Source of the DNA: Conidiobolus incongruus B7586
Taxonomy: Eukaryota
NCBI GenBank assembly: GCA_000697335.1
Contig: JNEM01011801.1
Coordinates: forward strand, 1 to 53,060
Direction: 5' to 3'
Length of the DNA: 53,060 nucleotides
Numbering within the stretch: position 1 is the first letter of the stretch; the number at the start of each line of letters is the position of its first letter. The notes beneath the pieces are model-generated. The model made no database searches. It worked only from the letters and a program-made list of their open reading frames with translations, and was not told where the DNA came from. Position numbers and translations under genes: made by a program. This document shows, piece after piece, positions 17,342 through 50,193 of the stretch.

Positions 17342-17641
17342 ATGGTTAATTTCAAATCTCTGATCTTCACTTTTGCTTTGGTTGCTGCTGCTCCTGTTAC
17401 AGAATCTGAAAATGCCGAATTAGCAGAACAAGCCGAAGAAAACTTCTTCAACGGTGGTTGGGGTCACAACAACTGGGGAGGCCATCATGGTGGTAACTAT
17501 TACAGACGTCAATGGGGCTGGGGAGGACGCCATGGTGGAAACTACTACAGAAGACAGTGGGGCTGGGGAGGACACCATGGTGGAAACTACTACAGAAGAC
17601 AATGGGGTTGGGGAGGCCACCACGGAGGCAACTATTACTGA
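17342..17641 (+). CDS. KEP-type precursor: QWGWGG(R/H)HGGNYY x3 separated by RR
   Basis: Signal peptide, acidic pro-region ..AEQAEENFF, first unit, then 3 RR-delimited 13-mers. The last unit ends NYY-stop. Confidence 0.93.
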   Translation: MVNFKSLIFTFALVAAAPVTESENAELAEQAEENFFNGGWGHNNWGGHHGGNYYRRQWGWGGRHGGNYYRRQWGWGGHHGGNYYRRQWGWGGHHGGNYY

Positions 17642-18592
17642 ACCATTTTACCAATTTGAATCAACTCGTTTTAATTTTGAAAGTTTAATAAAGATTATAA
17701 TCGAAAGAAATTTAAAATTTATTTTCTAATTATTGAATATAAAACAAAATTATAAGTATTAGCCTAATAAAAAATGTACACTATAAATTTATAATCTGTA
17801 CCATATTACATTATACTCGTCATTGCATATTTAAACTTTTTTTTGAATATTTTGAACAAATAATTAATACAAGTTAAATATAAATAATCCAATTCAATTT
17901 AAAATTAACCAGTTGACAAGTTTTTCAGATACATTATTCAATTAGTTTATAATAATAGTTATAATATATTATTACACAAACTATATATTGAATATCAAAA
18001 TTTTGTATAGTGTATTCAATTAAATTTAAAATAAAAAAATTAATGGACTGAAGAATATTCTAACAACATTGTATCGAATATAAATATTCAATAAATAAAT
18101 CTTAATTTATAGCTTAATTATATGTTATCAGTTCTTATGATAGATCCAAAGTTAAAATCAAATTCAAATAACATTTCAGTTATTGATAATTCTGTTTGAT
18201 TTTATGATTTAAATTGTTAAATTGATATTATCAAATTAATATCACTAAGATTTCCTTTAAAGTTTAACTTAAAAAATATTGAAAATTTAACAGTTATTAT
18301 GAAATATGAAAATATATTATAAAATTAATAAAGATTAAAATTAAAGAAATTGGAATTACGAAATTTGAAAATTTGGAGCAATATGGGGGGAGAATATGGA
18401 ACTAGTAATATAACATTCACACTGAGATGATCCTTGTGTAATGGCATACTCGTTCAAGTATTCAACCCCTTGGCATGTTGGAGATGATGGACTTACCCAG
18501 AGTATTCTATTAATATAAATACACGAATAGTGTCAGTTATTAATATTATCGAATTCAATATAATTTAGTTTTAATACAATACATTAATCAAT

Positions 18593-18865
18593 ATGGTATC
18601 TTTCAAATCTTTCCTCTTCACCCTTGCTTTCGTCGCCGCTTCTCCCGTATCAGAGTCTGAGAATGCCGAATTAGCAGAACAAGCCGAAGAAAACTTCTTC
18701 AACGGTGGTTGGGGTCACAACAACTGGGGAGGCCATCATGGTGGTAATTACTACAGACGTCAATGGGGATGGGGTCACAATGGCTGGGGACATGGCGGAA
18801 ACTACTACAGACGTCAATGGGGATGGGGCCACAACGGATGGGGACATGGTGGCAACTACTACTAA
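18593..18865 (+). CDS. KEP-type precursor: QWGWGHNGWGHGGNYY x2
   Basis: Signal peptide, acidic pro-region, and RR-delimited 16-mers ending NYY-stop. Confidence 0.93.
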   Translation: MVSFKSFLFTLAFVAASPVSESENAELAEQAEENFFNGGWGHNNWGGHHGGNYYRRQWGWGHNGWGHGGNYYRRQWGWGHNGWGHGGNYY

Positions 18866-19843
18866 ACAATCTTATGAATTTCAAGTATTTTTTAATTTTC
18901 AAATTTCAATATTATACCATAATAAATCTAAAAAATTTCTCAATTGTTTTTGTATAGAAAAATATGATAAAAATATAGTATATTCAATTCATCATATTTG
19001 AAAAGTTTTAATAATACTCCAAATAAAAAGTTAGAATTACATAATATTTTTCTAATGAATATTCAATATTTATATTGTTTAAGGATGTTTCAACTTAATT
19101 TCTATATAGCATTTAATATACTGACGTGATTACTATTAATTGTAACAAATAATGATACTAAGTTTTGAAAATGGAAATGTTTGAATATTAATTTATTACA
19201 AGTAATAATTGAAGATTTAAAAGCTGAGATTTAGAACTTAAAATTGATATTTATTAATTTGATAACTAGTTGAAAATTTCAAAATTAATACATAAAATAA
19301 TAAAAGTATTAAATACTATTATATAGTTAATATAATATTGAATTTCTGTATTTTGTATTAAAATATTTTTTAAAATATATATTACTAAATTAAATATCAA
19401 ACTACTTATTTCATTAAACTAATATTGATTGTTTAATTCGGAATTTAAATTATTATCATGCTATTGTTATATCAATATAATTATTACAATTTAGATACAA
19501 ATAATAAAAATGATAGATATTTAAAAATTAATATAATAGCTTGTTATGGTTTAATCTAATTGAGACTGGAAAAAATTTGATATGAAATTAAATCAAAATT
19601 GAACCATAAGATTTAGCAATTAATTGGAGGAATATGGGGGAGAAAGTGAATCTAGTAATGCTTCACATACATTGAGTCGATCATTATGTAAGGACATGCT
19701 TGTTCAAGGCTTCATTCCACTCGACAAGTTGGAGATGATGGACTTACCCAGAGTATTCTATTAATATAAATACACGAATAGTGTCAGTTATTAATATTAT
19801 CGAATTCAATATAATTTAGTTTTAATACAATACATTAATCAAT

Positions 19844-20116
19844 ATGGTATCTTTCAAATCTTTCCTCTTCACCCTTGCTTTCGTCGCCGCTTCTCCCGTA
19901 TCAGAGTCTGAGAATGCCGAATTAGCAGAACAAGCCGAAGAAAACTTCTTCAACGGTGGTTGGGGTCACAACAACTGGGGAGGCCATCATGGTGGTAATT
20001 ACTACAGACGTCAATGGGGATGGGGTCACAATGGCTGGGGACATGGCGGAAACTACTACAGACGTCAATGGGGATGGGGCCACAACGGATGGGGACATGG
20101 TGGTAACTACTATTAA
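19844..20116 (+). CDS. KEP-type precursor, protein identical to 18593
   Basis: Identical 90-aa protein. DNA is identical to the 18593 copy from ~116 nt upstream of the ATG to near the stop. Confidence 0.93.
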   Translation: MVSFKSFLFTLAFVAASPVSESENAELAEQAEENFFNGGWGHNNWGGHHGGNYYRRQWGWGHNGWGHGGNYYRRQWGWGHNGWGHGGNYY

Positions 20117-20215
20117 TTTCATTACTAATCAATTTTTCAAAGGAATTTTAATTTTTTAAATAATAAACCTATTAATTTTGAAACTTAATTGCAAATAAAA
20201 TTCGAAATTTGATAT

Positions 20216-20253
<38 letters not shown>

Positions 20254-21303
20254 CATATCTATATTAAGGTATTAGAAATCTAAAGTAAAAATCAATATTA
20301 ATAATTAGTATGAATACCATTATAGAATTTTTATTTTGATATAATTCAATATTGAATTTCACGAATTTTAATAATTAGAAAATTATGCTGATTATTAATT
20401 AGAAATTAATCAGGATTCATTCATAAAAAACTCACAAGCATTTTAATTAAGAGTTGTATACACTAGTTTTAAAGTAATATTGTTAATTTTATTATCAATA
20501 TTCATTTCAAGTTAAATCTTTCAATCATTATCATGCATTAAGGTTTTTCTCTCAGTGAATTAATTTGACCTTATTTAATTATAATTAGTTAAAATTGTTG
20601 AAAACTAATCATAATATAATTTAGAGAATATCAACTACGATTATTTTTCAATTGGATATCTTTAGGTGATTATCATTTCAATTAACTGAAATCTACTATA
20701 AGATCAATTCAAGAGAGTTTATTTGAAAGTAATTAATATTGTTCAATATAAAATATTGATAATATTTAACTCATGATAAATTACAATTTATATCAATTTT
20801 CTACTTAGTAATTAAAATAAATATTAAAAATTTAATATTTTATTACCATATATTAATCCTTTGATATAAATTCAAAACAACACAACATTAACCTGAGTTA
20901 TTTAAAAATTTTAATTAATAATAATCTTTTGAATAGATTAATGATTTCGAGAATTATTATCAGTTGATGTTTATTGATATATTCAATTGATTCAACTGAG
21001 TTTTGAAATTTTATATTATTTAAATATTAAATTAAAATTTTCCAATTCTTTAATCATTGTTAAATCATTGAAAATTTAGTCCAATAAATTCCTTTTTTAG
21101 ATTGAAATTAAATTGTTTAATTCAAATGACTCAAAAAAAATTATCATAATACTTACAAATTTTAACTAATTTATTAAAATAACCTTATATTGAATTCATC
21201 ATGAACTAATAATGATTAATATATAATTTTTCAATGAATTCATTTTGAGTAATCGATGTCGTATAAATAGTGAGATATTTGAATAATAATTTAATTTGGA
21301 AAA

Positions 21304-22352
21304 ATGTTGTCAAAATTAATCAATAATATTTATAACCATTTTATACCTTTAAATATTGAGCGTAAAGACTTGTCGAATAAAGTCGCTTTGGTTACTGGTG
21401 GGAACGATGGTAAGAAAAGAAATATAGCTTCATTCATTTCAAGCTATTAAATTTTGATAACTCTAGGGGTTGGATTCCAAATAGCCTACCACTTAGCAAC
21501 AATGGGCAGCACTGTCATTATAGCAAGTCGAAATGTTGAAAAATCCGACAAAGCTGTCCAACTCTTGAAACACATGTCCGGTAATCGTGAAATCTTTGCC
21601 GAGCAATTGAATTTGGCGAGTTTGCAAAGTGTCATTGATTTCTCTGAGACGATCCTTGAAAAGTATCCCAGAATTGATATCTTAGTGAACAATGCGGGGA
21701 TCTTGCCCTGGAGCTATGATGTGACTGAGGATGGTTACGAGCGATGCACTCAGATCAATTATTTGGCCCCATTTATTCTGACTTTGAAGATTTTGCCATC
21801 CATTAAGAGAGCTCCTGTGGGTAGGATCGTGTTTGTTGCAAGTGAATGTAAGTTAATTAGATGTCCATATTGCTTTAAATTGATCTAATTTGTTTTTAAG
21901 TTCACTGTTATAATTACTCCTTGAAATTACCTGATGATCTTCGCCCAAGTTCCAAGGATTTTATGGGTCTTAAAACATACTCCAAGACCAAGCTCATGTT
22001 AATTATGTTCAGTAAAGAGTTAGCAAAACAACTATCATCAACCAATATCATCGTTTCATCCTTGGATCCTGGATTGGTTAAAAGCAGTGTTGCATACCGC
22101 CATCTTCCAAATAACTGGTTCGGAAGCATATTCAATTTTTTTGGATCTCTCGGTATGACACTCTTTGGGAGAAGCGCCAGCCAAGGTGCACTGAATGCTG
22201 TGTACTGCGCAACTTCTGAAAATATCGAATCGGGAGCATATTACCAAAGTTGCAAAATTGGAGATCCTAATCCAATTGCAAAGGATGATGCAATGTGTCA
22301 AAAACTTTGGGAAGAAACACTTCAATTACTTGGAATGGATTTGCATGCATAA
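21304..22352 (+). CDS. Short-chain dehydrogenase/reductase, retinol-dehydrogenase/WWOX-like (3 exons: 21304-21409, 21467-21847, 21901-22352)
   Basis: KVALVTGGNDGVG Rossmann motif across intron 1, IDILVNNAG, QINYLAPFILT, catalytic YSKTK, DPGLV and ..KLWEET. Confidence 0.92.
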
Positions 22353-23212
22353 TTCTATCTATTAACTAGTTCTATATTAACTGTATTATGGTTATATTTC
22401 TCAGTATCTAATAAAACTTATATATTTTATTTATCAAACTAATTTCTAAAGTGAATTTCATTTTCAAATAATAGTTCAATTCATACAATGGCCCAATATT
22501 AAAAATTTCTTAAAATAAAATTTGAATCAAAACAAGTTTGAAAAGAATTATAATAGCATTAATTGATAATATTCAAATTCGTATATACTAATATTTATAA
22601 AAAATTTTAGTCATCCAATTGACTAATAAATTTATTTGTTTTATGAAATCAAGATAAGAGTTGAAAAATATATATAAGTATATCCATTATCTAACTAAGA
22701 CTACGCATGTTGAAATTAAATATTTCATTGCAAACATGAGCCAGTGTATTTGTATTTCGATTCAAATAAAAATTAACGCTAATAGCGTTTATGTTATGTA
22801 GTTATTGAGTTATATCTTAAAATGTCTTTTCAATGATTCTAAACTATTATTCTTAATATATATATAATCTATATTTTCAACGTTGATCATGTGAAAACTA
22901 AATATTTACAAACATAAATTGAATTGTTTTAAGTAAATTAAAATTTTATTATAATTGATAGAAATTGGCTATCATATTTTCTTAATTTTTGATAAGGTAG
23001 AATAATATTAATAATTATTATTACACAAATGTTTAAAATTTTATAATAATATTGGGTCTTGTAAATTTTATTGCTAATTGTATTTTTAATTTCATTTATA
23101 GTAATTTTATATTATTATTAAGTCTTTCAAATTTATTGAATATTGATTTTACAAGTTATTATTTTTAAAAACATTAGTATTTTATGCATATGTTTTGTTC
23201 TATAATAAGCTT

Positions 23213-23541
23213 GTAAATAAAGATCGTTGTTAGAAAAGTATTCATAATACAATTTAGTAGCTTATTTATTAATCCTGCGCTTTAAAGTATTGGGATTTTA
23301 TGTCTTAAAGCTGGCTTACTGTTGAGATGTCATAGCAGAATATTCAGAAAAAAGCAACCCACTTCTATCCTGGTCACTTCTAGGTTTAAATTATTGATTA
23401 AGTGAGTGGCATAGGAGTTAGATAATTTCTAATAAAAGGAGCTAAAAAACATCCTTTGTTTATAAACTAACAAAACCACTAAAAATGAGAAAAAGTAAAG
23501 ACTAAACTATCAGATCAAAATAGGCAGGTATTTTTGAAATA
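23213..23541 (+). repeat. Dispersed repeat, copy 2 (diverged, with extra segments)
   Basis: Shares blocks gtaaataaaga..gttgttagaaaagta, ctgttgaga, atagcagaatat and ttttgaaata with 10106-10364. Confidence 0.75.
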
Positions 23542-23929
23542 GCACACTTAGTATTATATATAATGATTTAAATTACTAATTACCATATTTTAATTGATAT
23601 AATTTGCTTTTATTATCAATTAATTTGACTATAATTAATAATAAAAAATTAATACTTTTAAGCTAAATAATGTTTAAAGCTGAATAATAAATAAATAAAA
23701 ATAAATTCATAAAAAATATAATATTTATAACTATTAATTAATATATTTGTTTCATTATAATAAAATATTAATTATGTATTCTTAAAATTAATTACCTTTA
23801 GATTTGAAAAAATCAAAATTTTTTAATTTTTGATTGTTTTAAATATTTTAATAATTTTAAATAATAAAATATATACATAATCAATAAGAAAATAAATAGT
23901 TTTAATTTTTATATATAAAGGCTTTTTTG

Positions 23930-24990
23930 ATGAAAAAATTTTATTAAAATTTATTATTTAATTTAATTATACTTAGACTAAATAATAATTATCAAAAATT
24001 TTATTTTAGTATTAATAAAATTTAACCATAAACCCTTTAAAATTATTTAAAATTTCCAAGTTATTTTTAATAATAAAAAATAATTTAAATTTACTATTGA
24101 TTACTAGGTAAATTATTTTTAAGTAAAAACAAAAGGTATTTAAAACTTAATAAAATTTAAAAAACTAATTTCAACTATCACCTATTTAATTATTAGTAGA
24201 GTTAAAAAATATATTAAAAGATATCTTTCTATTTCAACTAAAAAATCATTAAAATACTTTAATATTAGCTATATAAATATTCTATATATAAAGTTTAGAT
24301 TTAAATTAACTAGTAAAAATATAAAGTGAGTAAATTATAATTTAACTAAAGCTTCAAAAAATAGTAGTAGCTGTTATTAAACTAAACTTATTAAAATATA
24401 ACTAAAGAATAAAACTTCTATAATATATTATTATAATAGATAAATTTCAAGTCCCTTTATATATTTTTTATTAAAATATGAATTAAAAAATTAAATTAAA
24501 TTAAATTAATCTTATCTATAAATTTTTTTAAATAAGAAAATTATTGATATATTATGGTTATTATTGAAATAAACTATAATATTATATATTACCCTTATTT
24601 AATTTTTAAAGGAAAATTAATTAATAATAAATTTTATATTAATTTTTTCAAATAAAATAATATCTAATTAATATTTTTAAGATAATTTAAAAAATAATAT
24701 TATTTTATATATTAATTATAAAATATATAAATTTAACATTGTAAAATATTTTTTAATTAAAAATAAATAGAAAAAAAATACCATTTCTAATATATTTTTT
24801 AGATTATAGCTTATATGATTATAATAGTTTTAAGTAAATAAAAAACTAGCTTAGAAAAAAGAAAATTTCTATAGGAAAATTCAATTAGTATGTAAAATAT
24901 TAAATTTTTATCTTTAGCAAACTTTTAACACTTAAAAAGCATTATATTTATTATAAATACAGTAAAAAGTTATTAATAATAATAAAAAAG
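23930..24990 (+). mobile_element. Hypermutated mariner transposase relic, family 2 copy A (bounds approximate)
   Basis: Colinear with 51860-52920 (e.g. aaccataaaccctttaaaattatttaaaatt). Translates to KNIK*VNYNLTKA (WVPH.LT) and IPFLIYFLDYSLYDY (LPHPPYSPD..P.DY). Confidence 0.75.
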
Positions 24991-25849
24991 AATTAATGTT
25001 ATATTATATATTATTTTTTTTCAATCACAGAAAATTCCCATTATTTAAATTAAAGAATAATATTAACCATTTTATTTTAAATTATAAATTATTAATTGAT
25101 CTATAAATTATACTAAATAAAACAATAATATCATAAATATTCAGATAAAAGTAAATATGATTGAATGTTATCTAATATTATCTGATATTATTGTTTATTG
25201 AAAAAACTTAACAAATACTAGTTTAATAATGTTTTAAAATAAATAATTTGTAAAATCTACATAATATATATTAAAATTGATCGAATATATTATTAAATAA
25301 TTAATGATATACATTTATTTTAATAAGTAAATTTAATATATAAATGATATATATTTTATATAATGATATGATTATTAGATTATTTTATATAATTAATAGG
25401 AATTTATAATATATTAATCATCATTATTCAAAAAGTAAAAATTTGTTATCAAGTTAATATTTGTAAAATATGAATATCATAAATATTTTCATAAAATACC
25501 TATTAATATATAAACAATATATAATATAATATAATATGTTTATTATTATGATTCCAAAATGATTATTTTTTAGAGTATTTATTTAAGATCAATAGAAATT
25601 AATATTAAATATATTGTATTATTTTTTTATGAATTCATTTAACTATGTACGAGATCAAGGGCTATATAAATTTAATACTGGTATTATTAATTTATGATCT
25701 ATCAATTTATTCATATATTGATAACATTGAAGTATTTATTAAAAAAATATTTAATTTATAAATATTAATTAATTGAGGTTCGGAAAAACTATTGATATGC
25801 AATATATAGGATGTGATATCTACTATTGATGTTTGGGATTTAATATGAG

Positions 25850-26356
25850 TCAGTAAGTATCATTAGCATGGTCGTAATCATTATCATGGTAGTGAGCGCT
25901 ATTGTTGTGATTATGGTGGTTGCCGTTGTAATAATCATTATGATGGTCATCATAATAATCATTGTAATGGTCATTGCGGTGGTGGTCGTTATAGTTGACA
26001 TTGTAATGATCGTTATAGTGGTCATTATAATGGCTATTGTAATGGTCATTATAGTGGTTATTATAGTGATCATCATGGTATTCTCCATGGAACCTATTGT
26101 GATGGCCAACCTTATATCCATTATAATGGTCATTATAATAGTCATTGTCATAATCATCATGGTATCCATTATGAAGACCGTGACGAGGATAACCCATTCC
26201 AAATCCATAATTCTTCAATAGCTGGTGTTTAACAAGATTCCTACCATGCCTATGGTCATATCCCCGGTTATAGTCACTGTAAGCATAATCTTTACCAGGT
26301 AATGGCGATCCTACAACAGAAGTAATGATAAAGATAAGAGTTTTCAAAGCGAGCAT
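25850..26356 (-). CDS. Small secreted His/Tyr/Asn/Asp-rich protein with (HYND)n-like tetrapeptide repeats
   Basis: 168 aa: MLALKTLIF signal, SPLP, RNLVKHQLLKNY..YPRHGLHNG (paralogous to 4983), DHYNNHYNDHYNSHYNDHYNDHYN, ending in Y. Confidence 0.9.
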   Translation of the reverse strand: MLALKTLIFIITSVVGSPLPGKDYAYSDYNRGYDHRHGRNLVKHQLLKNYGFGMGYPRHGLHNGYHDDYDNDYYNDHYNGYKVGHHNRFHGEYHDDHYNNHYNDHYNSHYNDHYNDHYNVNYNDHHRNDHYNDYYDDHHNDYYNGNHHNHNNSAHYHDNDYDHANDTY

Positions 26357-26641: not shown

Positions 26642-28334
26642 CAATTTGAGTAGATTAAAATGTTAATTCATTGTTAAAGTCAATCAATTAATTGAAATAG
26701 TAAATTGATGAATAACTAATTGAAAATAATACAGTTGATTTTTTAGAGCATTTAAATCAATTTGAATTAATAATTTATAATTATAAATATCCAATTTTCC
26801 TTTGAACTACTATAATACAATTTCAGTTACAATCAATGATAAATAGAATTTAATATCATTAATTTTTTGATATTAACTTGGTATATGAAATATATTTATA
26901 GATAATTCTCTACTGGAATTCACTTATTATAGTATCAATGTTTATTATAATATTTTATGATTTATTTGATTTAATTATAGACTATATTGCAAAAATATCA
27001 ATTAAATAATATTTGTCATATGGTGTCAAATTATCATATTAATGAATTTGATAATAATTGATACCAAATATATAGTAAATTAAATTTACTACACTTGATT
27101 TATAAATGTATCAAATAAAAATAATGATAATTAATATATATTCAATATATTATCATTGGAAATAACATATCAAATAAATTTGTTTATGTACATCTTGATA
27201 ATATATATTACTTTGACAACTGGAAATGTGGAAGGAAATAGGCTTATAATGCTTAAACAGAGAATTAGCAGCTGTAAACAAGTGCTTAACACAAAGTTAT
27301 TCGAAATTAATGATTTTCACCAAATAAGGAGAAAATAATTTACTTTAAATTGGGCTTTTCGAATAAGGTAAATATCTCATGCTGGCCACAGTTCAATACT
27401 TTTTGGGAGTGTTAAGAGTAGACTTAAAGTCAATATACTTTTTGAATGAAGATAATTAGATGATAATCCTATTTTAAATACTACTATTGACTTTTATGGA
27501 TAAGACCAAGTCTCTCAGAAAATGCCAGAAGCAACCAGTTTATAAAGGGGTGACTCCCAAAGTGACTTCTCAAATCAGTGTGGTAATTGTAGTTCTTTGA
27601 GTGATTAACAAGAGTATTCCCTATTAACTTTATCATAATAATAGTTTTATTCTTTAGATTTGATTTAATACAAATGAATCATGGAATTTTAAATCCAAAT
27701 TGTAAATTGATCATTGAAAAGATTAGTGAAGTATTAGTCAAGTAAATATCAATAAACGCTAAATTATAAAAATCAATCAAAATCTTTTTAGTAGTATTAA
27801 ATAATTTCTTTTTCTTTATATATATAATACTTTAATATTAATGAATAATGAAATTTTTTGTAATAAAGGATATTTAATGAAAAACAATTAAAATCAATTG
27901 ATTGATTCAAAGGATGTCAAAGATTAAAAATTTTGTCAATTAAAATTTATTAATCAATATAAAATTGACGTATAAGTTTTAAAGATTATTAAAAAATAAT
28001 TCAATGGAAAGATGAATTTTGATTTTGAACAATATTAGTGCAATAAATTAATCGAATATTATATTATATAATCAGAAATTGAATCAATTGTTTGATATGA
28101 TTTGAAATATAGGTTTTTATTCGTTATATAAATTATAAAATTTGACTGGTCACTTCAATCAAAAAAGAGTACTTGATATTAGTACAATGGTAAGAATCAT
28201 ATATTTCAGAATTTTAATAAATTTTACATCCCATAATTAAAACCCCCCACCTTTTAAATAATAAATATATACTGACAATGGTGACATATACGAAATTGGA
28301 CAAACCTCAAAATCTTAATAATACTTAATAACCA

Positions 28335-30379
28335 ATGAATCGACAACCTCACAAATCACCAGACACTGGCTTAAATAGAAGAATAAGTATCAACAGTCTG
28401 GGAAGTAGACCAAACTCTCAGATTGGTTATAGAAGTAATGATATCAATGATTTAATATTTAATTAGAATTTAATTGTTTAAAATAGGTAGATTAACAGAA
28501 GTGAATAACTTTAGAAAGTTTAGTGTATTAGCCCAAAGGTATTTCTCCAATACAAAAATTGAACGAAAGTTAATTAATTCTAAATTAGTAAGAGACAATC
28601 TACTATCAATGACATAACCATTACTTCGATAGAGACTGAGAGTTTAAAAGACACGAGACCACTAAATCGTAAATCCTATCAAACGCAGTGTATAGGAGAA
28701 TTGATATCATATTTGAAGAGTCAAAACTATATGGTAGACATTCAAAGGAAAGATTTGAATCCTGCTAGTAATAAAGACTTTCAAGATATTTTCAAGTTTT
28801 TATATTCGAAGATTGATAATCAGTACGTATTCAGGAGGAGATTTGAAGAAGAGGTACCGATTTTGCTGAATCAATTGATGTATCCAGGTGCAAGTGCAAT
28901 TAATAAGAGTCACTTGTCTACTGTTGGCACTCAGCACAAATGGCCGACCCTCTTGGGTGTTTTGCACTGGCTCATGCGATTGGCCCAAAGTCTCGAAGCG
29001 ATTGAAGTGTCCAAAGAAACTGAAAATACTGTGACATACGACGATCCCGCATTTAACGACATTGCTTATTGTCAATACGCTCAGCACCGATTCAGCAGCA
29101 CGCTTCAAGGCGTGGATGAAGCCGAAGCTATCGAAAATGCCGAAACTGTCTTGCATAACCTTTTGGATCAAAAATTCGATATTTACGATCAAGAGAATCA
29201 ACAATTGGAAGCGGAAATTGAAGACTTGACTAATCAACTCAACGATGAGAAGGCTAAACCCAATTTGAGGAGCTGTTTGGATCAGTTGAAAACCGAAAGG
29301 GACCGCAGTGAACAATTCAAAAACTACTTAATCAAGAATACAGAGTATAAGCAGCGATACTTACAAGATGAGAAGGATAGGAATATCGAGTACGACAAGT
29401 TAGAGGCGGATATTGCGGATCTGAAGGATCAAGTGGCACATTTGGAGCATACTATTGAGAATCAGGAGCTTTCTCAAGCTGAAATTCAGCATTTGATCAA
29501 TGAGAGAATTAATCTGTTAACTGAGTTGGAAACCCTCAAAATGACTGAAAGAACCCTAGAAGCTGAAATTGAACAGTTGGAGGAGGAGAGAAAGATCAAG
29601 GCTAATGACATCGTTGTCGAATTGAAGCGATACAATCAATTGCTAGTAGACTGCGGTCTAGTTGACGATCAAGACGAACCCATTCAGGTTACACTCGACG
29701 TGAATGCCGAACAACGTGCAAATATGCTCAACTACGAACCTATTAGGGATCTCGAGCCCAAGCTTCATCAATTAATAGAGTCCTACAACCAACGCCAAGT
29801 AGAAACAAAAACACGATCCGTAGAAATTCAGACTGAGATCCAAGCGATGCAGATGGAGTTAGAGGATTTGGAATTCCGCAAGGAGCAAGCGAAGCGCGAG
29901 CTCAAGCAGAAGGAAGATGAGTACAAGGATGAGAAGGAACGTCACGAGAATCAGATGAAGAGTTTGCAGGATCAAATCAATGCAATTCACTTGAAAATGA
30001 AGCAACTTCAGCCTAAGACTAAGGCAGATGTTTTGAGCGCTCAGGGCGAGTTGAATAAGATTAAAAATGAGTAAGTTTTTGCAATTTGTATAAACTAATA
30101 ATGAATTAACCATTTCTCCCCTATAGTGTCGCCAAGCTCCAACGAGAACTGGACTTCCGTCTAACTCACCTCACGAATCAATTCAAGTCGGCGAACGAGC
30201 AGATTCGGTCCCAGAACGACAAGATCAAGCAGAATTTATTGGCTTACAAAACTGCAGTGTCGGAGGAGTGGGAGTACACGAGTCGCCAGGCTGAACGCAT
30301 CAATCAAACCGACGCATTCGAGGATGTCCCCCTCATTACACCGTACAAGAAGAGGAAAATCGAATTGGAATTATCTTAA
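28335..30379 (+). CDS. NDC80: Kinetochore protein Ndc80/HEC1 (exons 28335-28434, 28487-28538, 28589-30070, 30127-30379)
   Basis: Basic N-tail. KDTRPLNRKSYQ..I..LISYL and KDFQDIFKFLY..FEEEVP.LL..LMYP..I.KS.L..VG..H.WP..LG.L.WL form the Ndc80 CH domain, followed by a long coiled coil. Introns restore the frame. Confidence 0.95.
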
Positions 30380-30769
30380 TATCTGCTTGGATTTAATATT
30401 GAATTAACATGAGTTTTTATTTCACCTCCGAGTCGATTACAATTTTTTATAAAAATAAATTTGCTCATTAGTTATTTAGTAATAAATGTTATTACCAATT
30501 ATTAGATTAGATTAATTTTAAAAAATTATTAATTTTGGGATTGTTTTTTTGGAGAAAATATAAAATCATAATAATAATTAATTTAATTATCCCAATATCA
30601 ATAAGCTATCAATGATATTTTAATAATTAAAGTATATAATTTCAGCATAAAACTATAATGAAATAAAATAAAAAATATTAGTACAAAAATTAAATAATCA
30701 CACAATTTTAAAATTAATAATAAATATATATCATTAATATATGGAATATAAATTAATACTCTATTTTAT

Positions 30770-31760
30770 TTTTAAAAACTCTTTATTATACTTTTCACAA
30801 GCTTTTAACACTTAAAAACAATATTTTTATTAAAGATTAAAATTTGATATTTTAAAAACTAATTTTTTTATTGGGTATTAATTTTCCTGTAAATTTATTT
30901 TTTAATTCTTTATAACAATTATAATCATATAGGTTATAATCTAATGAATATACTAGATATATTAATTTTAATTTTAATTTTTTTATACAAAATCTTTTAT
31001 GGTTTTAGCTTTATATATTTTAAAATTATTATATAAAATAATAAATAGTTTTAATTTATAATAAGGATATTAATTATATATCATTTTTTTAAAAAATAAT
31101 ATAATATTTACTCTTAATTAATTTACTTTTAAACTTAAATAAGAACAATATATATTATTATAATCTATTATTATAATTAATATTTATATAATAATAAAAT
31201 ATTTGATTATTAGAATTTATAAAGGGGATTATTTGAATTTAATATTTTTTTTGTTTTTAACTAAAGAACTATATATAAAATTTAAGATTTATTAATTATT
31301 ATAATTTAATATAAAACTTTTGTTTTTGGTTATATCTTATTTAATTTAGTTTTTTTCTAAGCTTTTGCTAAATAATATGGTATTTAATTTATATTTTTAT
31401 CAATTTTACTAAGTTCAAATTTTAAAATAAATATTATATTTTTATAGCTAATATTATATTACTTTAATAATCCTTTAATTATAATAATAAGGTATTATTG
31501 AATATATCTTAAAATTTTATTAATAAATAAATTATATTAATAATAATGATTAATATCATAAATTATGGAATTTTTAAATAAAATCCTTGTTAATTTTAAT
31601 ACAATAAACCTAATAATAAAAAATTATTTTAGATAAAATAATAATTTATAGGTTATTTACAATTGTCAAATAATTTTAAGAGTTTATGATTAAACTTAAT
31701 TATATCAATATAATATATTTTTAATAATCATTAGTTAATTAAATTATAATGAAATTTAAA
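30770..31760 (-). mobile_element. Hypermutated mariner transposase relic, family 2 copy B (bounds approximate)
   Basis: Reverse complement aligns with copies A and D. Minus-strand translation LIYLVYSLDYNLYDY at ~30920-30965. Confidence 0.7.
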
Positions 31761-33850
31761 TTTAAATTTTTAAATCAAAATATTTTAATGAAAAATAATA
31801 ATATATGGATATATATATAATATAAAGATATATCGTTATCTATTTATTTTGTATATCGTTATTCTTTTAAAGGCTATAATAATATGAAAAATAAGAAATT
31901 AAAAGATTTAAAATTTCTTTTTGTTTATAATAATAACCCTAGTGAAATTGGAATTTAATAAAATCAAAAATAATTATATAAATAAATAATTAATAATTTT
32001 ACCAAGGATCAAATCTAAAATCTCTTGATATATATCCAAGCACTTTATTCATTTAGCCATAGAGTCTTACTCTTTATAATACTCAAGAATAATTTTTAAA
32101 AATATTTTAAATTACTTAATAAAGTTGGAATTTTCTGAACCATATAAAATATGAAAATTGGCTATATAGATTTTAGTTTAGTTTTTATAAATTAATTAAT
32201 TTTCAATGATTTACCAATCTTGATTGAAATGTCGTTTTATTTTAAAATATTCAATTATCAGTATTATTACAGATAGTTATTTATTTAATCACTGTAAATA
32301 AAATTATTATTAATATTCAAATTAATATCCTGAAATCTTATTTCAAAAAAGATTTTTCTATTGATAATAATGGTAGTCTCATTGGTAAGATAATGAAAGA
32401 TAATTTTCAATTAAATATTGGCTTTGAACTATATTTCAAAGGTTAGTCATATCTCAAAAATATATAAAGATTTTTAATCAATATCAAGGAGTATATTTAA
32501 TAAATTTTATGTAAGCACTTGATAATTTCCTAATTATTTATAAAAAACTATTAAAAAAGATGATAAATATAATAATAATACACAAAAACAATGATTATGA
32601 TAATACAAGATTGTTACTTATGATAAATCATAGGTATTATATTTATTTTATTTTATCAACAAAATATAGATTAAATATAACCAATTTGTACAAATTTTTT
32701 CTATATTTAAACAATTATAAAAATAGAAGTATAATTTGAATTATAGCTATATTTTATTCAAATAGTAACAAATATAGAGAATAGACATAAATAAAATATT
32801 ATTTACAATATATATCAAGGATAATATAAGCAAATGGCGTTTATTTTACCTTATTCAAAGGTTTAATTTTGTATATAATATCAAATTCCTTTCACAAAAC
32901 TTGTCAAAGACTATTAAATCATAGCCATGGATGGGCTTTACAACCATATCCACAACACTTTTCATATATAAGTCCTTGGGAATTCCAGAATTTTATACTA
33001 TTAGAGAGCCTTATTTGGAAAAACAAATTATTTCTTAATAATATTAATACAAAATTTAATATGGCGATTAAATTTCATATAAAGCACACAAATTACATTA
33101 GGGTTAAATAAGTTTTAAAAGTTTGGAAACATACTATGTCAAATAAACAAAATTTATAGTATATTTATATAAAGATAATTTTATTAAACTTTATTAAATA
33201 AAATTCAAACATAATTGTTAATATTATTTTCAAAAATTTATAACACAATTTAATAATGAAATTCAAAAACAAAAATAATTCAATTTTTAATCAAATTATA
33301 TATTAACATTCTTTTATTTTATTATTAAAATTTTTATCTTGCAATTTTCAATATTTTATTTTTAATTATTTTTAATTAATCGATTATTTATATATCATCA
33401 TTATTAAATGATAATATTTAAATTAAAATATTTAAAAAATAATCTTTAATATATTGAATTTTAATTAAATGAATATTATAACAAATTACCAATTATGTTA
33501 GTTCGATCATTCGGTTAAAATGTTAAGACATATATTTCTAATTTTACAATATCAAATATATTGGACAGTTTATAATCATTAAAGAAATAAAAATTTAATT
33601 ACATTATATTTTTTAGAAATAAATATCAGAATTTAAATCAAAAATGATTAAATATATCCTATTTGATAAAATAATGTTGGAATCATACAAATTGTATGGC
33701 TGTAAAAGAAATATATAGAACTCATCTTACATATTAATTGACAATTGGCTTTTCAGTTCAAATTAATAATTAGAAATTAATACAAATTGTTATGTAGTTA
33801 GAGAATTTATAAGAATTTGAATAATAAAAAAGATAATTATAAAAACCAAT

Positions 33851-35857: not shown

Positions 35858-35930
35858 GGTTCCATGGCCAAATGGATAAGGCGCTTGACTACGGATCAAG
35901 AGATTCCAGGTTCGATCCCTGGTGGAATCG
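35858..35930 (+). tRNA. tRNA-Arg (anticodon ACG)
   Basis: GGTTCCA/TGGAATC acceptor stem, D arm with TGG, anticodon arm CTTGA-CT ACG GA-TCAAG, T arm CCAGG-TTCGATC-CCTGG. 73 nt, followed by a T-run Pol III terminator. Confidence 0.97.
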
Positions 35931-37035: not shown

Positions 37036-37281
37036 ATGGTTTCATTCAAATCCCTTATCTTTATCCTTGGATTTATTGTTGCCGTTCCAGTTTCCGAATC
37101 TGAAAATGCTGAATTGGCCACTGAATCAGAAGAAAACTTCTTCAACAATGGCTGGGGCCTCAATAACTGGGGTCATCACGGTGGTAACTACTACCGACGC
37201 CAATGGGGATGGGGCTTCCCTGGAAACAACTACTATAGAAGACAATGGGGCTGGGGACACCACGGTGGCAATTACTATTAA
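37036..37281 (+). CDS. KEP-type precursor: QWGWGFPGNNYY and QWGWGHHGGNYY
   Basis: Signal peptide, ..ATESEENFF pro-region, and two RR-delimited 12-mers ending NYY-stop. Confidence 0.93.
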   Translation: MVSFKSLIFILGFIVAVPVSESENAELATESEENFFNNGWGLNNWGHHGGNYYRRQWGWGFPGNNYYRRQWGWGHHGGNYY

Positions 37282-38923: not shown

Positions 38924-39202
38924 ATGGTGTCTTTCAAGTCTTTGATCTTCTCCATTACTTTGGTCGCTGCTGCTCCTGTCTCTGAGTCTCAATCTGCCGA
39001 GTTGACTACCCAGTCTGAAGAAAATTTCCCCAACAATGGATGGGGACATAATAACTGGGGATACCATGGTGATAACTACTACAGACGTGATTGGTATGGA
39101 AACCGTGGCAACAACTACTATAGACGTGATTGGTATGGCCACCATGGTAACAACTATTACAGACGCGATTGGTACGGTAACCATGGAAGCAACTACTACT
39201 AG
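38924..39202 (+). CDS. KEP-type precursor: DWYG(N/H)(R/H)G(N/S)NYY x3
   Basis: Signal peptide, ..TTQSEENFP pro-region, and three RR-delimited 11-mers ending NYY-stop. Confidence 0.93.
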   Translation: MVSFKSLIFSITLVAAAPVSESQSAELTTQSEENFPNNGWGHNNWGYHGDNYYRRDWYGNRGNNYYRRDWYGHHGNNYYRRDWYGNHGSNYY

Positions 39203-40887: not shown

Positions 40888-41190
40888 ATGGTTTCTTTCA
40901 AATCTCTCATCTTTTGCATTGCTTTGGTCGCTGCAACTCCTGATAATGAAGCCCAGTCTGCAGAGGTAACTGGCCAATACCAAGAATACTTCCCCAACTA
41001 TGGATGGAGATACTATAGTAACAACTACCACAGACGTGGTTGGTCTGGTTACCATAGTAATAATTATCACAGACGTGGTTGGTCTGGTTATCATAGTAAC
41101 AATTATCACAGACGCGGTATGTACGGCTACCATGGTAACAACTATCACAGACGTGGTTGGTATGGTTATCACGGAAACAACTACCACTGA
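40888..41190 (+). CDS. KEP-type precursor: G(W/M)(S/Y)GYH(S/G)NNYH x4
   Basis: True start is the ATG at 40888 (MVSFKSLIF). Four RR-delimited 11-mers end in YH, and the last ends YH-stop. Confidence 0.92.
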   Translation: MVSFKSLIFCIALVAATPDNEAQSAEVTGQYQEYFPNYGWRYYSNNYHRRGWSGYHSNNYHRRGWSGYHSNNYHRRGMYGYHGNNYHRRGWYGYHGNNYH

Positions 41191-42470: not shown

Positions 42471-42671
42471 ATGATTGCTTTCAAATCTCTCATATTTTCT
42501 ATTGGACTGATCACTGCTGCTCCTGTCTCTGAGTCTCAATCTGCTGAGTTATCTTCCCAATCTGAAGAAAATTTCCCTAACAATGAATGGGGACATAATA
42601 ACTGGGGATACCATTATGATAACTACTACAGACGCGATTGTTATAGTCACCATAGTAACAATTACTATTAA
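42471..42671 (+). CDS. Short divergent KEP-type precursor (single RR; DCYSHHSNNYY), possibly decaying
   Basis: Intact 66-aa ORF with the family signal and pro-region. Core W->C and G->S/D/E substitutions, and no clean TATAAA upstream. Confidence 0.75.
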   Translation: MIAFKSLIFSIGLITAAPVSESQSAELSSQSEENFPNNEWGHNNWGYHYDNYYRRDCYSHHSNNYY

Positions 42672-44110: not shown

Positions 44111-44389
44111 ATGGTGTCTTTCAAGTCTTTGATCTTCTCCATTGCTTTGATCGCTGCTGCTCCTGCCTCTGAGTCTCAATCTGTTGAGCTAACTACCCAG
44201 TCTGAAGAAAATTTCCCTAACAATGGATGGGGACATAATAACTGGGGATACCATGGTGATAACTACTACAGACGTGATTGGTATGGAAACCGTGGCAACA
44301 ACTACTATAGACGTGATTGGTATGGCAACCATGGTAACAACTATTACAGACGCGATTGGTATGGCAATCACGGCAACAACTACTACTAA
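44111..44389 (+). CDS. KEP-type precursor: DWYGNRGNNYY + DWYGNHGNNYY x2
   Basis: Signal peptide, pro-region, and three RR-delimited 11-mers ending NYY-stop. Confidence 0.93.
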   Translation: MVSFKSLIFSIALIAAAPASESQSVELTTQSEENFPNNGWGHNNWGYHGDNYYRRDWYGNRGNNYYRRDWYGNHGNNYYRRDWYGNHGNNYY

Positions 44390-45468: not shown

Positions 45469-45747
45469 ATGGTATCTTTCAAGTCACTTATCTTCGCTTT
45501 TGCTTTGGTCGCTGCTGCTCCTGTCTCTGAGTCTCAATCTGCTGAGTTAACTACCCAATCTGAAGAAAATTTCCCTAACAATGGATGGGGACATAATAAC
45601 TGGGGATACCATGGTGATAACTACTACAGACGTGATTGGTATGGCAATCATGGCAACAACTATTACAGACGAGATTGGTATGGAAACCATGGCAACAACT
45701 ACTACAGACGTGACTGGTATGGCAATCACGGCAACAACTACTACTAA
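45469..45747 (+). CDS. KEP-type precursor: DWYGNHGNNYY x3
   Basis: Three identical peptide units encoded with synonymous codon variation, ending NYY-stop. Confidence 0.93.
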   Translation: MVSFKSLIFAFALVAAAPVSESQSAELTTQSEENFPNNGWGHNNWGYHGDNYYRRDWYGNHGNNYYRRDWYGNHGNNYYRRDWYGNHGNNYY

Positions 45748-47263: not shown

Positions 47264-48852
47264 AGCAGTATATCATTTTCATCCAACCAATTTTTGCATA
47301 TCCATTGATAATAAAAAATACTGTATAATTTTCAATACTTTTGATATGTTATTTTTATATTATAAATATACATGAACATTTATATTGATATAATATTTCG
47401 ATTTTATCAAAACATAAGCTTGTAAATTGATTAAAAGTGTGATTTTATTGATTAAATATTTCTTTGTTCAGCATTTCTATAATTATAATATAACAAATAA
47501 TCAAAATTATCATTGATTATATTAAAATATAAATTTATTATATTTTAAAAATATTATTTTAATATATAGATATTTTGGTTAGATAGTAATCAGTTTTTAC
47601 TATGGCCTTTATCCAATCAATTTAAAAGTTCACTTGAGTATTTATATTTATACTTCACCAATTTTCAGATAAATATCCAAATTATGTTTATTTTCTTGCC
47701 AGATTTTAGAATATATAAGCCATTTTATATTCTAAATTCGAATATAATAATATACTGCTCTATTACTGAAATTATCATGGATATACCTTGATATTACAAT
47801 TTATTGTGATGAAATTACCATTCAAATTACTAATACTATTTACCTCAATCTACTAAAAATTATTAATATATTAAAAAATTTATATGAGTATTTACAGTTT
47901 TTAAACCCGGGAGTTTCATTGACAAAAAAATAATAGATATTAGTAAATCAATAAAAATAAAATATAAATTATGAATTAAAGAGTTAGGTCATATATTTTT
48001 CAATTAATTTCAATTTTTTAATGTTTGAGAAAAATATTATATTAATTTGATTTGAAAATATACATATGTTCTTTCATCATATTAATATTAAAAATTTTAA
48101 CTACATTTCCATAGACTAAAATTCATTATTAATTTTTTTTTTGAAAATAAAATATCGAATAAAAATAATATGAACAAATTGTTTTATACGAATTAACGCT
48201 TTTCAACTCCATATTTAGATAGTTTTATACATTTTTACGATACAAGAACTAGTTCCAAACTCAAGCTAGGGATTGATTTTTATAAAATAGAGCTGATATT
48301 ATAAAAATTGAAAAATCATAGGTTTGACAATATAATTTTATATTCAACTATATCAACAAATAGATATTTTGATATTACAATTTCATTATGAATTAAGTGA
48401 TTAACAATATCCTTATTGGTGGAATAAATTTTCAATTTATTCATAAATTTAAATATATATATATATATATATATATGATTATCCATGTCAAATTATTTCT
48501 TAAAGCTTACAAAATATCATTTATTAATTTCTAAAAATAGAAACTTGATCTGATCATTTTCTGATTTGATCTTTTTGAAATCACCAAAATATTTATTAAA
48601 ATAAATTGAAGAAATTGATGATGACAAATTAAATCTGATCTGAATTTAAAATTAATTATATATTTAAGACAGAGAGATTGATTCCTATCTTTAATGAAAA
48701 GTAGACATAATATTTTAATGTTATTTATTAGAGAAATAAGCCATTTGGCATACAGTATAATAAATTATATTCTAATAGATTGGGTGAAAGTATCAGTAAT
48801 GTAAATTTGATTTTATTCTTAAACTTGCAATACATCAATCAATAAGGAACTA

Positions 48853-49074
48853 ATGATCGACTTGACACCTTATAATCTATTGATCTTGGTTATTGCTTTG
48901 ACTGCTACGGTTCCAGTTTCTGACTTTCAAAATGGCAAATTAATTTCTCAATTTGAATAAAGATTTCCCGAACAATAGATGGGATTTGGCATCTACTATA
49001 AACGAGATTCGAATGGTAATCATGCCAACATCTACTATAGAAGATAATCGAATTATGCAAATCACAACTTTTAA
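48853..49074 (+). pseudogene. KEP-family pseudogene (DWYG-like)
   Basis: Reads MIDLTPYNLLILVIALTATVPVSDFQNGKLISQFE*RFPEQ*MGFGIYYKRDSNGNHANIYYRR*..., with recognisable signal, pro-region and YY(K/R)R junctions plus in-frame stops. Confidence 0.75.
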
Positions 49075-49905
49075 TAAAAGCAAGGGTTATTAATATATTT
49101 TTACTATTTGTAATAATTAAATTTCAATAACAGCTGCATTTATCATAAATTTATCAATATTAAAATTTTTAAATTTTGAAACTGTGAATTTATAATTACT
49201 AAAAAATTTTCATTTAAATCAAAATATTGACGATGAATTTTATTCTTTTGCTGAATACAATTTTAATAATTTGAAATTAATTAATAAAATCTTGGGAACT
49301 GGTATATTTATTATTTATTATTAAAAATATGAATATTTGAAATTTTCGTATACTTAAATACAGATTAGAATCAAATTAGATTTATTATGAATTTAATTAG
49401 GAGATTTGAATATTTTAAGTTAGAACTAATAAATCAAAGTATTACTTTATTAAAACACAACTGTTTGAAACATCAATTATCAATTTTGACTTAAAAAATC
49501 TAACTGAAATTCGAGAAATTTATAATATCTCAAACAATTTGATAGAAATTAAGATCTTTCTTCATCAAACTAGAAAATAGTTTAAATATTTTGAAAAATT
49601 TAAATAATAATAGTGGCTTTGACTGCTAAGTATCGATACTGACCAAGGTACAGAATTTTAAATTTTATTATTTCCCTAATTTTTTAGAGAAGCTGGAATC
49701 AATCAATGATATAATTCAACAATTTATAGTTAAAATCGAAGTCCCAAGCCAACTGTAAAGCATGAACCTCTTGGCTATGAGCAGAACTAGATTAACTTAT
49801 ATAATCCAAGAACTCGAAGTAACAAAAATACTTATTTAAGAATACTTAATTTTGTGGTCAAACCATTTTATAATATTAACTCAATTTTATTACACAATCG
49901 CTAAA

Positions 49906-50193
49906 ACGGTCTTGTTCAAATATCTTGTCTTCACAATTACACTGGCTGCTGTTGCCTCCATTACAGGCGCAAAAAATACCAAACTTGATGAACACTCTAA
50001 AGGAAGCTACTTTCATGGTGCATGTGGCCACAACAACTGAGACTATCATCATGATAACTACCACAGATGCTGATGAAGTTTGAGAAGTCATCATGACAAT
50101 AGATATTACAGACTTCAGTGAGGGAATGTTAATCACAGGAACTACTAGAGAAGACAATGGGACTAGAGCCATCACTAAGGCAATTACTACTAA
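49906..50193 (+). pseudogene. KEP-family pseudogene (QWGWG-like)
   Basis: ACG (mutated ATG) VLFKYLVFT.., then GHNN*..NYHR..NY*RRQWD*SHH*GNYY*. Several Trp codons have become TGA/TAG. Confidence 0.85.

What the first reader, a model, noticed from the sequence alone, without database searches (positions are those of the whole stretch)
17342..50193. Large multigene array of Kex2-processed repeat precursors predicted to release a library of xWxG..HG(N/G)NY(Y/H) peptides
Seen: 10 intact genes plus 2 pseudogenes, each with a signal peptide, an acidic spacer ending ..EEN(F) (QEY(F) in 40888) and 1-4 further units separated by RR. In every intact gene the last unit stops at NYY/NYH with no trailing RR, which is exactly the C-terminus Kex2 cleavage plus Kex1 trimming would give the internal units. 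That argues the RR sites are real processing sites. Predicted products include QWGWGG(H/R)HGGNYY, QWGWGHNGWGHGGNYY, QWGWGFPGNNYY, DWYGN(H/R)GNNYY and GWSGYHSNNYH. Established: this architecture defines fungal KEPs (alpha-factor, Ustilago Rep1, Candida Ece1, ustiloxin-type dikaritin precursors). Inference: I do not recognise these cores, and a dozen-gene tandem expansion in an apparently early-diverging fungus may be an undescribed peptide system (RiPP, signal, antimicrobial or surface peptide).
Basis: partly seen in the sequence, partly recalled or inferred. Interest (0 to 1): 0.9.

Follow-up and report, generated by a model that had tools for sequence, protein, structure and literature searches.

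The report
Conidiobolus tyrosine-rich Kex2 peptide gene array
A fungus likely related to the insect-killing mould Conidiobolus carries ten intact, sequence-conserved copies of a small gene whose product is predicted to be secreted and cut into short glycine/tyrosine/tryptophan-rich peptides that likely form a sticky surface coat; this kind of precursor is common in fungi and a close relative is already catalogued, but the searches run here found no study of these peptides.

Summary
Observation confirmed: 10 intact genes and 2 pseudogenes, all on the + strand, but in two blocks (17.3-20.1 and 37.0-50.2 kb) split by housekeeping genes. All 26 RR sites follow NY[YH], and all 10 genes stop at NY[YH] with three different stop codons. 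The repeats are under purifying selection in this frame (pN/pS 0.04), and relatives swap RR for KR at the same place, as Kex2 sites would. The named relatives are from Conidiobolus coronatus; one, KXN68836 (67% identical), is already listed as a KEP in Umemura 2020 and flagged there as also found by Le Marquer 2019. So this is an uncharacterised KEP family, not an unseen kind. No DUF3328 or tyrosinase was found nearby, and no STE13 dipeptides, so dikaritin and alpha-pheromone readings fail. New here: six neighbouring genes look like RR-less, strongly acidic Asp/Tyr/His-rich paralogues. Best guess for function: linear aromatic peptides that self-associate as a surface coat or adhesive (about 40%). 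Cleavage, expression and function are untested.

The parts
17342..17641 (+). KEP precursor, 99 aa, QWGWG-type, 3 RR sites
   Evidence: 67% identical to C. coronatus KXN68836 over 98 columns
18593..18865 (+). KEP precursor, 90 aa, QWGWG-type with 16-residue cores, 2 RR sites
19844..20116 (+). Recent duplicate of 18593: same protein, 2 silent base changes
37036..37281 (+). KEP precursor, 81 aa, QWGWG-type, 2 RR sites
38924..39202 (+). KEP precursor, 92 aa, DWYG-type, 3 RR sites
40888..41190 (+). KEP precursor, 100 aa, divergent type with cores ending NYH, 4 RR sites
42471..42671 (+). Short precursor, 66 aa, 1 RR site, Trp replaced by Cys in its core, no TATA-like box found; possibly decaying
44111..44389 (+). 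KEP precursor, 92 aa, DWYG-type, 3 RR sites
45469..45747 (+). KEP precursor, 92 aa, DWYG-type, three identical cores with different codons
   Evidence: 60% identical to C. coronatus KXN65018
46985..47263 (+). Recent duplicate of 44111: same protein, 4 silent base changes
48862..49110 (+). Pseudogene of the DWYG group (no ATG, in-frame stops; one site reads KR); end approximate
   Evidence: tblastn E 2e-11; translation and tree
49906..50193 (+). Pseudogene of the QWGWG group (no ATG, in-frame stops)
   Evidence: tblastn E 2e-16
146..394 (-).
   Evidence: N-terminal profile E 3.6e-6; net charge -10
1310..1606 (+). RR-less acidic Asp/Tyr-rich paralogue, 98 aa; keeps an AENF motif after the spacer
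   Evidence: profile E 1e-4; net -20
3247..4103 (+). Broken copy of the 4983-type gene in two pieces (about 3247-3422 and 3959-4103) with about 540 bases between them
4983..5369 (+). RR-less Tyr/Asn/Asp/His-rich paralogue, 128 aa
   Evidence: profile E 3.4e-7; net -11
6236..6595 (+). RR-less His/Tyr/Asp-rich paralogue, 119 aa
   Evidence: profile E 2.7e-5; net -17, 21 His
8046..8315 (+). RR-less Tyr/Gly/Asp-rich paralogue, 89 aa
   Evidence: profile E 2.3e-10; net -14
25850..26356 (-). RR-less His/Asn/Tyr/Asp-rich protein, 168 aa, between the two KEP blocks; paralogue of 4983
   Evidence: 71% DNA identity to 4983; profile only E 0.11

Best explanation
Ten paralogous genes under purifying selection encode small precursors that are predicted to be secreted and cut by Kex2 and Kex1 into linear 11-16-residue Gly/Tyr/Asn/Trp/His-rich peptides, which likely self-associate into an extracellular surface coat or adhesive on spores or hyphae. 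Steps: (1) signal peptide removed after about residue 16 (inferred); (2) the disordered precursor stays roughly charge-balanced because the acidic spacer (-4 to -6) offsets the Arg pairs (whole mature chain -2 to +1 in 8 of 10 genes; computed); (3) Kex2 cuts after each RR and Kex1 trims it, stripping the positive charge and giving every unit the same NY[YH] end (inferred from yeast biochemistry); Gln-initiated cores would likely cyclise to pyroglutamate; (4) the near-neutral peptides, one third aromatic and without aliphatic residues, would associate by Tyr/Trp stacking and His-Tyr contacts, perhaps with later Tyr oxidation (inferred by analogy); (5) gene and repeat multiplication raises dose. 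Confidence by step: Kex2/Kex1 processing about 0.85; linear, little-modified products about 0.75; surface-material role about 0.4.
For: Coding and constrained: among 9 distinct DWY-unit DNA sequences pN/pS is 0.04 in this frame and 0.17-11.4 in the other five; both recent duplicate pairs differ only by silent changes (2 and 4). A TATA-like box lies 73-89 bases upstream in 9 of 10 genes; TATAAA occurs in 37 of 442 comparable slots. Dibasic sites: 26 of 26 in one context; relatives P0003 and P0006 and pseudogene 48862 have KR in the same place; P1' is Asp in 13 of 26, matching the acidic preference reported for Kex2 (PMC2515848, passages); yeast Kex2 cuts RR repeats of MiSSP8 in vitro (10.1101/218131, passages); C. 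coronatus is not among the 15 species listed as lacking KEX1, KEX2 or STE13 (PMC6339444 Table S1b). AlphaFold2 gives only a signal helix and no confident fold (mean pLDDT 49). Cores are 25.5% G, 21.3% Y, 18.5% N, 11.8% W, 11.1% H. Squid-beak peptides of Gly/His/Tyr repeats phase-separate through His-Tyr bonds and Tyr stacking (PMC9999432 section 3.4.3). A KEP with a surface-fibril role exists (Rep1; PMC3133707, passages). Six neighbouring RR-less paralogues keep Tyr-rich composition and a C-terminal Tyr (6 of 6) without keeping sequence, as material proteins tend to (own judgement).
Against: No expression, cleavage or assembly data; nothing here measures function. The DWYG core is nearly unchanged in C. 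coronatus and pN/pS is very low, which suits a receptor ligand as well as a material. The cores are short and hydrophilic (GRAVY -1.2 to -2.2), unlike the 34-53-residue amphipathic repellents, and the squid study needed at least two motifs per chain. RR is read as a Kex2 site by rule only; Bader et al. report predicted sites that were not cut. No dibasic site frees the first unit. Six C. cinerea kep knockouts had no phenotype, and the authors favour biotic-interaction roles (PMC9769878). Pairwise pN/pS values are not independent, and the low pLDDT comes from a 9-sequence alignment.
Confidence: 0.4

Rival explanations
1. Same processing, but the linear peptides act on other organisms: Gly/His-rich antimicrobial or metal-binding (Zn/Cu) peptides that defend the substrate or insect cadaver.
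For: 22 of 26 cores carry His; shepherin I, a Gly/His-rich plant peptide, forms antifungal fibrils with Zn(II) (PMC10698721, abstract); weak GRP Pfam hits for 2 of 7 precursors scanned; a 13-member library suits broad targets; Vogt et al. favour biotic roles for KEP peptides.
Against: Cores are not cationic once RR is removed (tail net +1 to -4), 4 of 26 have no His, none has His at position 3; GRP scores 20 and 15.8 bits are under the 30-bit cut-off.
Confidence: 0.2
2. Same processing, but the peptides are signals (developmental, density-sensing or mating cues, or ligands for host receptors), with the constant NY[YH] end as the message and the variable N-terminus as the address.
For: Constant C-terminus in 26 of 26 cores with a variable front, strong purifying selection, near-identical core in another species; peptide signals are known KEP products (PMC7329392 discussion).
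Against: No STE13 dipeptide after any site (0 of 26) and no Gly amidation donor before RR (26 of 26 sites have Y or H there); ten genes and 26 units are more dose than a signal usually needs (judgement); the RR-less paralogues cannot release such ligands.
Confidence: 0.17
3. The RR pairs are there for charge, not cleavage: the uncut cationic repeat protein pairs with the acidic Asp/Tyr/His paralogues to form a complex coacervate or cement.
For: Repeat tails are net +2 to +9 in 9 of 10 genes and the six paralogues -10 to -20; no site frees the first unit; two-charge cements are known in sandcastle worm (PMC9999432, passage).
Against: Tails hold 0 Lys and only 5 unpaired Arg of 57; last units never carry RR; relatives toggle RR and KR only; a disordered RR passing the Golgi is expected to be cut.
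Confidence: 0.1
4. The genes are RiPP precursors whose Tyr/Trp/His cores are cyclised or cross-linked by enzymes encoded elsewhere.
For: Every core has Tyr, the residue needed for dikaritin ring closure, and core lengths match ustiloxin-type repeats (13-14 aa with the site); a secreted tyrosinase group marks Zoopagomycota (PMC9391592, passage).
Against: No DUF3328/UstYa, tyrosinase, P450 or methyltransferase hit in 35 long and 98 short ORF fragments of the window; 0 of 185 Zoopagomycota KEPs have DUF3328 nearby (PMC7329392 Table 1), including all 19 C. coronatus rows. Only 2.9 kb of DNA is visible right of the array.
Confidence: 0.1

Closest known systems
Conidiobolus coronatus KXN68836.1 (CONCODRAFT_18747), stand-alone KEP in Umemura 2020 Table S2, marked as also detected by Le Marquer 2019
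   Same: 67% identical to gene 17342; same signal, EENF spacer and GGNYY-RR repeats. A second C. coronatus protein, KXN65018.1, shares the DWYG cores.
   Different: Cores begin NGGWG, not QWGWG; the database model seems to fuse a second tandem copy (second alignment). Only a catalogue row; no peptide or function reported in the texts searched.
Fungal KEPs in general (Le Marquer 2019, PMC6339444; Umemura 2020, PMC7329392; Vogt 2022, PMC9769878)
   Same: Signal peptide, short repeats, RR sites, last unit without a site; lineage-restricted sequence; duplication within one genome.
   Different: No dibasic site before the first unit; linked to six RR-less acidic paralogues; 4 of 10 genes have fewer than 3 sites and would be missed by the published filter.
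Ustilago maydis Rep1 repellents
   Same: Kex2-released repeat peptides proposed to build a surface layer.
   Different: Repellents are 34-53 aa amphipathic peptides from one 652-aa gene; these are 11-16 aa, hydrophilic and aromatic, from ten genes; no sequence relation found.
Dikaritin precursors (ustiloxin, phomopsin, asperipin-2a)
   Same: Signal peptide, Tyr-containing repeats of similar length, dibasic sites.
   Different: No DUF3328 or tyrosinase gene found nearby; no YxIx-type core.
Laccaria bicolor MiSSP8
   Same: Small disordered secreted protein, RR sites next to Asp-Trp, proposed role in hyphal aggregation.
   Different: Order is DW-RR there and RR-DW here; products are 4-mers; no homology shown.
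Squid His-rich beak peptides and shepherin I (analogues by composition only)
   Same: Gly/His/Tyr-rich short repeats that self-associate, by pH or by Zn.
   Different: Not fungal, not homologous; the GHGxY motif is absent, and these cores add Trp and Asn.

Membership tests
KEP (KEX2-processed repeat protein) | N-terminal ER signal peptide, no other membrane segment | tested here: met
   By proxy, SignalP not available: hydrophobic core at 7-15 in 10 of 10, only helix in the model at 4-15; the 67%-identical relative passed the SignalP-based pipeline.
KEP (KEX2-processed repeat protein) | At least three similar repeats separated by KR/RR/KK sites | tested here: met
   6 of 10 genes have 3 or more RR sites; 9 of 10 have 3 or more units counting the first; 42471 has 2 units.
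KEP (KEX2-processed repeat protein) | Repeats of 8-100 aa covering at least 15% of the protein | tested here: met
   Cores are 11-16 aa; cores after the first RR alone make 17-44% of each protein (lengths).
KEP (KEX2-processed repeat protein) | Actual cleavage by Kex2 and trimming by Kex1 | not testable with these tools
   Indirect only: site context, RR/KR toggling; no genome held to look for KEX2; the relative is not on the list lacking it.
Dikaritin RiPP | DUF3328 (UstYa) oxidase gene clustered with the precursor | tested here: not met
   No hit in 35 + 98 ORF fragments; exons under 42 aa, 72 AT-rich short fragments and DNA beyond the window were not scanned.
Dikaritin RiPP | Tyr in the core | tested here: met
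   26 of 26 cores.
Dikaritin RiPP | Cyclic, modified product | not testable with these tools
   Needs mass spectrometry.
Ascomycete alpha-pheromone precursor | STE13 XA/XP dipeptides after the Kex2 site; MF_alpha profile | tested here: not met
   0 of 26 cores start XA/XP; no MF_alpha hit among 7 precursors scanned.
Rep1-type repellent | 34-53 aa amphipathic peptides | tested here: not met
   11-16 aa, GRAVY -1.2 to -2.2, one Met as the only aliphatic-type residue in 26 cores.
Rep1-type repellent | Amyloid-like fibrils at the hyphal surface | not testable with these tools
   Needs ThT, EM and localisation.
Plant glycine-rich protein family PF07172 | Score above the Pfam cut-off (30 bits) | tested here: not met
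   20 and 15.8 bits for two precursors, none for five.

The most novel reading that the evidence does not exclude
The locus encodes a two-part, hydrophobin-independent fungal glue: Kex2-released neutral Tyr/Trp/His peptides plus uncut acidic Asp/Tyr/His paralogues from the same ancestral gene, condensing on secretion and cured by secreted tyrosinase, a fungal counterpart of squid-beak and marine-adhesive chemistry that would explain how entomophthoralean spores and holdfasts stick.
Probability: 0.15. Interest if true: 0.8.

Novelty: new member of a known kind. Interest (0 to 1): 0.45.

Why it matters
Most KEPs have no known function, and none from an entomophthoralean fungus turned up as studied in the searches run. 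This family gives exact masses for 13 predicted peptides, so cleavage and modification can be tested in one peptidomics run. The mix of cleaved and RR-less paralogues at one locus shows how a KEP may arise from, or give rise to, an uncut Tyr-rich secreted protein. The adhesive of Entomophthora is stated to be undetermined (PMC8588673, passage); if these peptides are a coat or glue they would be candidates for such a material, but no Entomophthora relative was retrieved, so that link is a lead only.

Tried and rejected
Alternative reading frame: the +1 frame reads as Thr-rich repeats, and in metagenomes such NYYRR patterns mostly look like off-frame shadows of other repeats; rejected here because pN/pS is 0.04 in the annotated frame and 7.7 in +1. 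Stop codon as a recent Arg-to-stop accident: rejected, three different stop codons sit at the same place with no repeat remnant behind. No RNA holder listed; no evidence either way. No whole genome held. ESM Atlas: no usable hit for two precursors. PDB by sequence: one hit at E 0.12, judged chance. Longer-protein search: none of 7,995 candidates scored (180-195 aa was covered by no alignment search). P0007 and P0009 were dropped: P0007 is an unrelated long repeat protein, P0009 a 2,627-aa weak hit whose sequence I did not view. C. coronatus KEPs KXN65014/16/17 (type 328) and KXN68835 (type 300) have accessions next to family members, but searches did not retrieve them, so their membership is unproven. 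No fold search was run on the low-confidence model, and no complex prediction was run. Paper searches with no hit: Conidiobolus + Kex2, CONCODRAFT, five-term Tyr-rich search. Le Marquer's Table S2, which holds the KEP sequences, gave no match for two core motifs in the text held and may describe these cores in its online form.

Full report
Check of the observation. The window is 23.8% GC. All lie on the + strand, in two blocks: three genes at 17.3-20.1 kb, and seven genes plus two pseudogenes at 37.0-50.2 kb. Between them lie a short-chain dehydrogenase, Ndc80 and a class 3 lipase; a dynein light intermediate chain gene lies to the left (Pfam). Each precursor has a hydrophobic stretch at residues 7-15, an acidic spacer ending EENF (QEYF in 40888), a first unit of 14-20 residues, and 1-4 further units after RR. 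All 26 RR sites follow NY[YH], and all ten genes stop at NY[YH] with TAA, TGA or TAG. The 26 released cores are 13 distinct 11-16-mers. The pattern is not chance (12 matches against 0 in 100 shuffles; 26 Arg pairs against a shuffled maximum of 13, though paralogues are not independent; one gene alone gives P=0.004).

Are they real genes? Repeats like these can be off-frame shadows of other repeats, as most of the 122 metagenome loci appeared to be. Here the annotated frame is the constrained one: pN/pS is 0.04 among 9 distinct DWY-unit sequences and 0.18 among all 14 distinct 13-codon units, against 0.17-11.4 and 0.35-1.9 in the other five frames. Third codon positions vary in 12 of 13 columns, first and second in 5 of 13 each. 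The two youngest duplicate pairs differ by 2 and 4 bases, all silent. A TATA-like box lies 73-89 bases upstream in 9 of 10 genes. Expression itself could not be tested.

Relatives. Three word-index searches and one full HMMER search returned few family members: P0001, P0003, P0004, P0005, P0006 and P0008. The named ones are all from Conidiobolus coronatus (Entomophthorales): KXN68836.1, in the 90% cluster of P0001, KXN65018.1 and KXN70513.1. The others are unnamed JGI/IMG or Logan records. None of the 9 window proteins looked up is in the collection exactly, so the source is probably a relative rather than that strain (inference). Gene 17342 is 67% identical to KXN68836, whose second half aligns again to spacer plus first unit, as if two tandem genes were merged. 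Gene 45469 is 60% identical to KXN65018, with nearly the same cores. Both main core types therefore appear older than the split of the two fungi; a protein tree groups the DWYG-side genes with P0004 and P0008 (97/97), other branches being weak. In P0003, P0006 and pseudogene 48862 the site reads KR, with Arg kept second, as Kex2 requires (established knowledge; PMC9769878 introduction).

What is already known. KEPs are defined by a signal peptide and three or more repeats between dibasic sites (methods sections of PMC6339444, and PMC7329392). Umemura found 7,878, with Zoopagomycota the richest phylum per strain (185 KEPs, none near DUF3328) and several single-genome expansions. Table S2 there lists 19 for C. 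coronatus, including KXN68836.1 as stand-alone and as also found by Le Marquer. So the family has been caught by two screens but, in the texts searched, not described: neither main text names Conidiobolus, and searches for Conidiobolus with Kex2, for CONCODRAFT and for Tyr-rich secreted peptides of C. coronatus found nothing. The library lacks most subscription papers, and Le Marquer's online sequence table was not visible.

A wider family. A profile of the first 36 residues of the ten precursors, run on all 1,394 stop-to-stop segments of the window, ranks next five small genes at 146-8315 (E 2e-10 to 1e-4), then the two pseudogenes, a broken copy near 3247 (E 0.05) and gene 25850 (E 0.11), before any background segment. 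These six genes have no dibasic site, are net -10 to -20, are 18-24% Tyr in their tails and all end in Tyr. Caveat: the control held no unrelated signal peptides, so part of the score may be general signal-peptide likeness. The simplest reading is one ancestral secreted Tyr-rich gene that gave a cut branch and an uncut branch; the direction is not resolved.

Mechanism. Shown: gene structure, selection, site context, composition. Inferred: secretion; Kex2 cleavage (RR repeats of MiSSP8 are cut in vitro; acidic P1' is favoured, and 13 of 26 sites have Asp there; C. coronatus is not listed as lacking the proteases); pyroglutamate on the 9 Gln-initiated cores (seen for other KEP peptides). The precursor has no confident fold. 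Its acidic spacer roughly cancels its Arg pairs, and removal of RR leaves tails of net +1 to -4. The cores are 88% Gly, Tyr, Asn, Trp and His, with one third aromatic residues. Such peptides resemble, by composition only, squid-beak peptides that condense by His-Tyr bonds and Tyr stacking; Rep1 shows that a KEP can build a surface layer. I therefore favour a self-associating coat or adhesive, at about 0.4. Against it: short hydrophilic cores, strict sequence conservation that also suits a ligand, and no direct data. Rivals are antimicrobial or metal-binding peptides (0.2), signals (0.17), an uncut polycation partnered with the acidic paralogues (0.1) and a RiPP modified in trans (0.1). No DUF3328, tyrosinase or other tailoring enzyme was found in 35 fragments chosen from the 103 frames of 65 codons or more, or in 98 of 170 non-family fragments of 42-64 codons. 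How the first unit is freed is unexplained; the conserved Glu-x-aromatic motif at the spacer end may mark a second protease site, or that unit may stay attached.

Papers as seen: PMC7329392 abstract, passages, discussion, methods, supplement rows; PMC6339444 abstract, passages, methods, supplement 1 rows and part 6; PMC9769878 abstract, introduction, one results section, discussion; PMC9999432 passages and section 3.4.3; PMC2515848, PMC3133707, PMC8588673, PMC9391592 and 10.1101/218131 passages; PMC10698721 abstract. Other papers were seen only as search listings.

Verdict. A real, constrained, lineage-restricted KEP family with an unusually large local expansion and an uncut sister group. It is a new member of a known kind, with a catalogued close relative and no known function. 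Interest 0.45.

Noticed in passing
window 35858-35930 (+): tRNA-Arg(ACG) gene 1.1 kb before the second KEP block; the second Arg of the RR pairs is CGT or CGC in 22 of 26 sites, the codons this tRNA reads. Probably coincidence.
   Followed up: no
window 23639-25062, 30714-31935, 51104-53016: Three related very AT-rich stretches (11-12% GC, 69-75% alike); the last is a long inverted repeat (arms about 600 bases, 83% alike). Likely decayed transposons; raised TpA/ApT (1.0-1.14 against 0.87) hints at C-to-T erosion.
   Followed up: partly
window 10080-10368 and 50206-50492: A 289-base dispersed repeat, 91% alike in opposite orientation, one copy starting right after pseudogene 49906; a weaker copy at 23191-23412.
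   Followed up: no
window 11212-11343 (+): Remnant of a mariner (Mos1-type) transposase HTH domain, E 1e-5.
   Followed up: no
window 3454-3886 and 27215-27624: A 430-base repeat (66% alike, inverted) that lies between the two pieces of the broken 4983-type gene.
   Followed up: no
window 13000-13981 (+): Intron-containing gene whose start recalls an SPX domain (recalled, no call supports it; Pfam gave no such hit).
   Followed up: partly
window 14434-16200 (-), 21451-22352 (+), 28584-30379 (+), 33851-35316 (-): Housekeeping genes: dynein light intermediate chain, short-chain dehydrogenase, Ndc80, class 3 lipase (Atg15-like by recall).
   Followed up: partly
C. coronatus record KXN68836.1 (P0002): The public gene model seems to join one precursor to part of a second tandem copy; the 102-aa form P0001 looks like the true single gene.
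   Followed up: partly
L003, L024: Metagenome ORFs of 167 aa with seven Cys-containing NYHRR repeats; no signal peptide seen and no profile match to this family.
   Followed up: no
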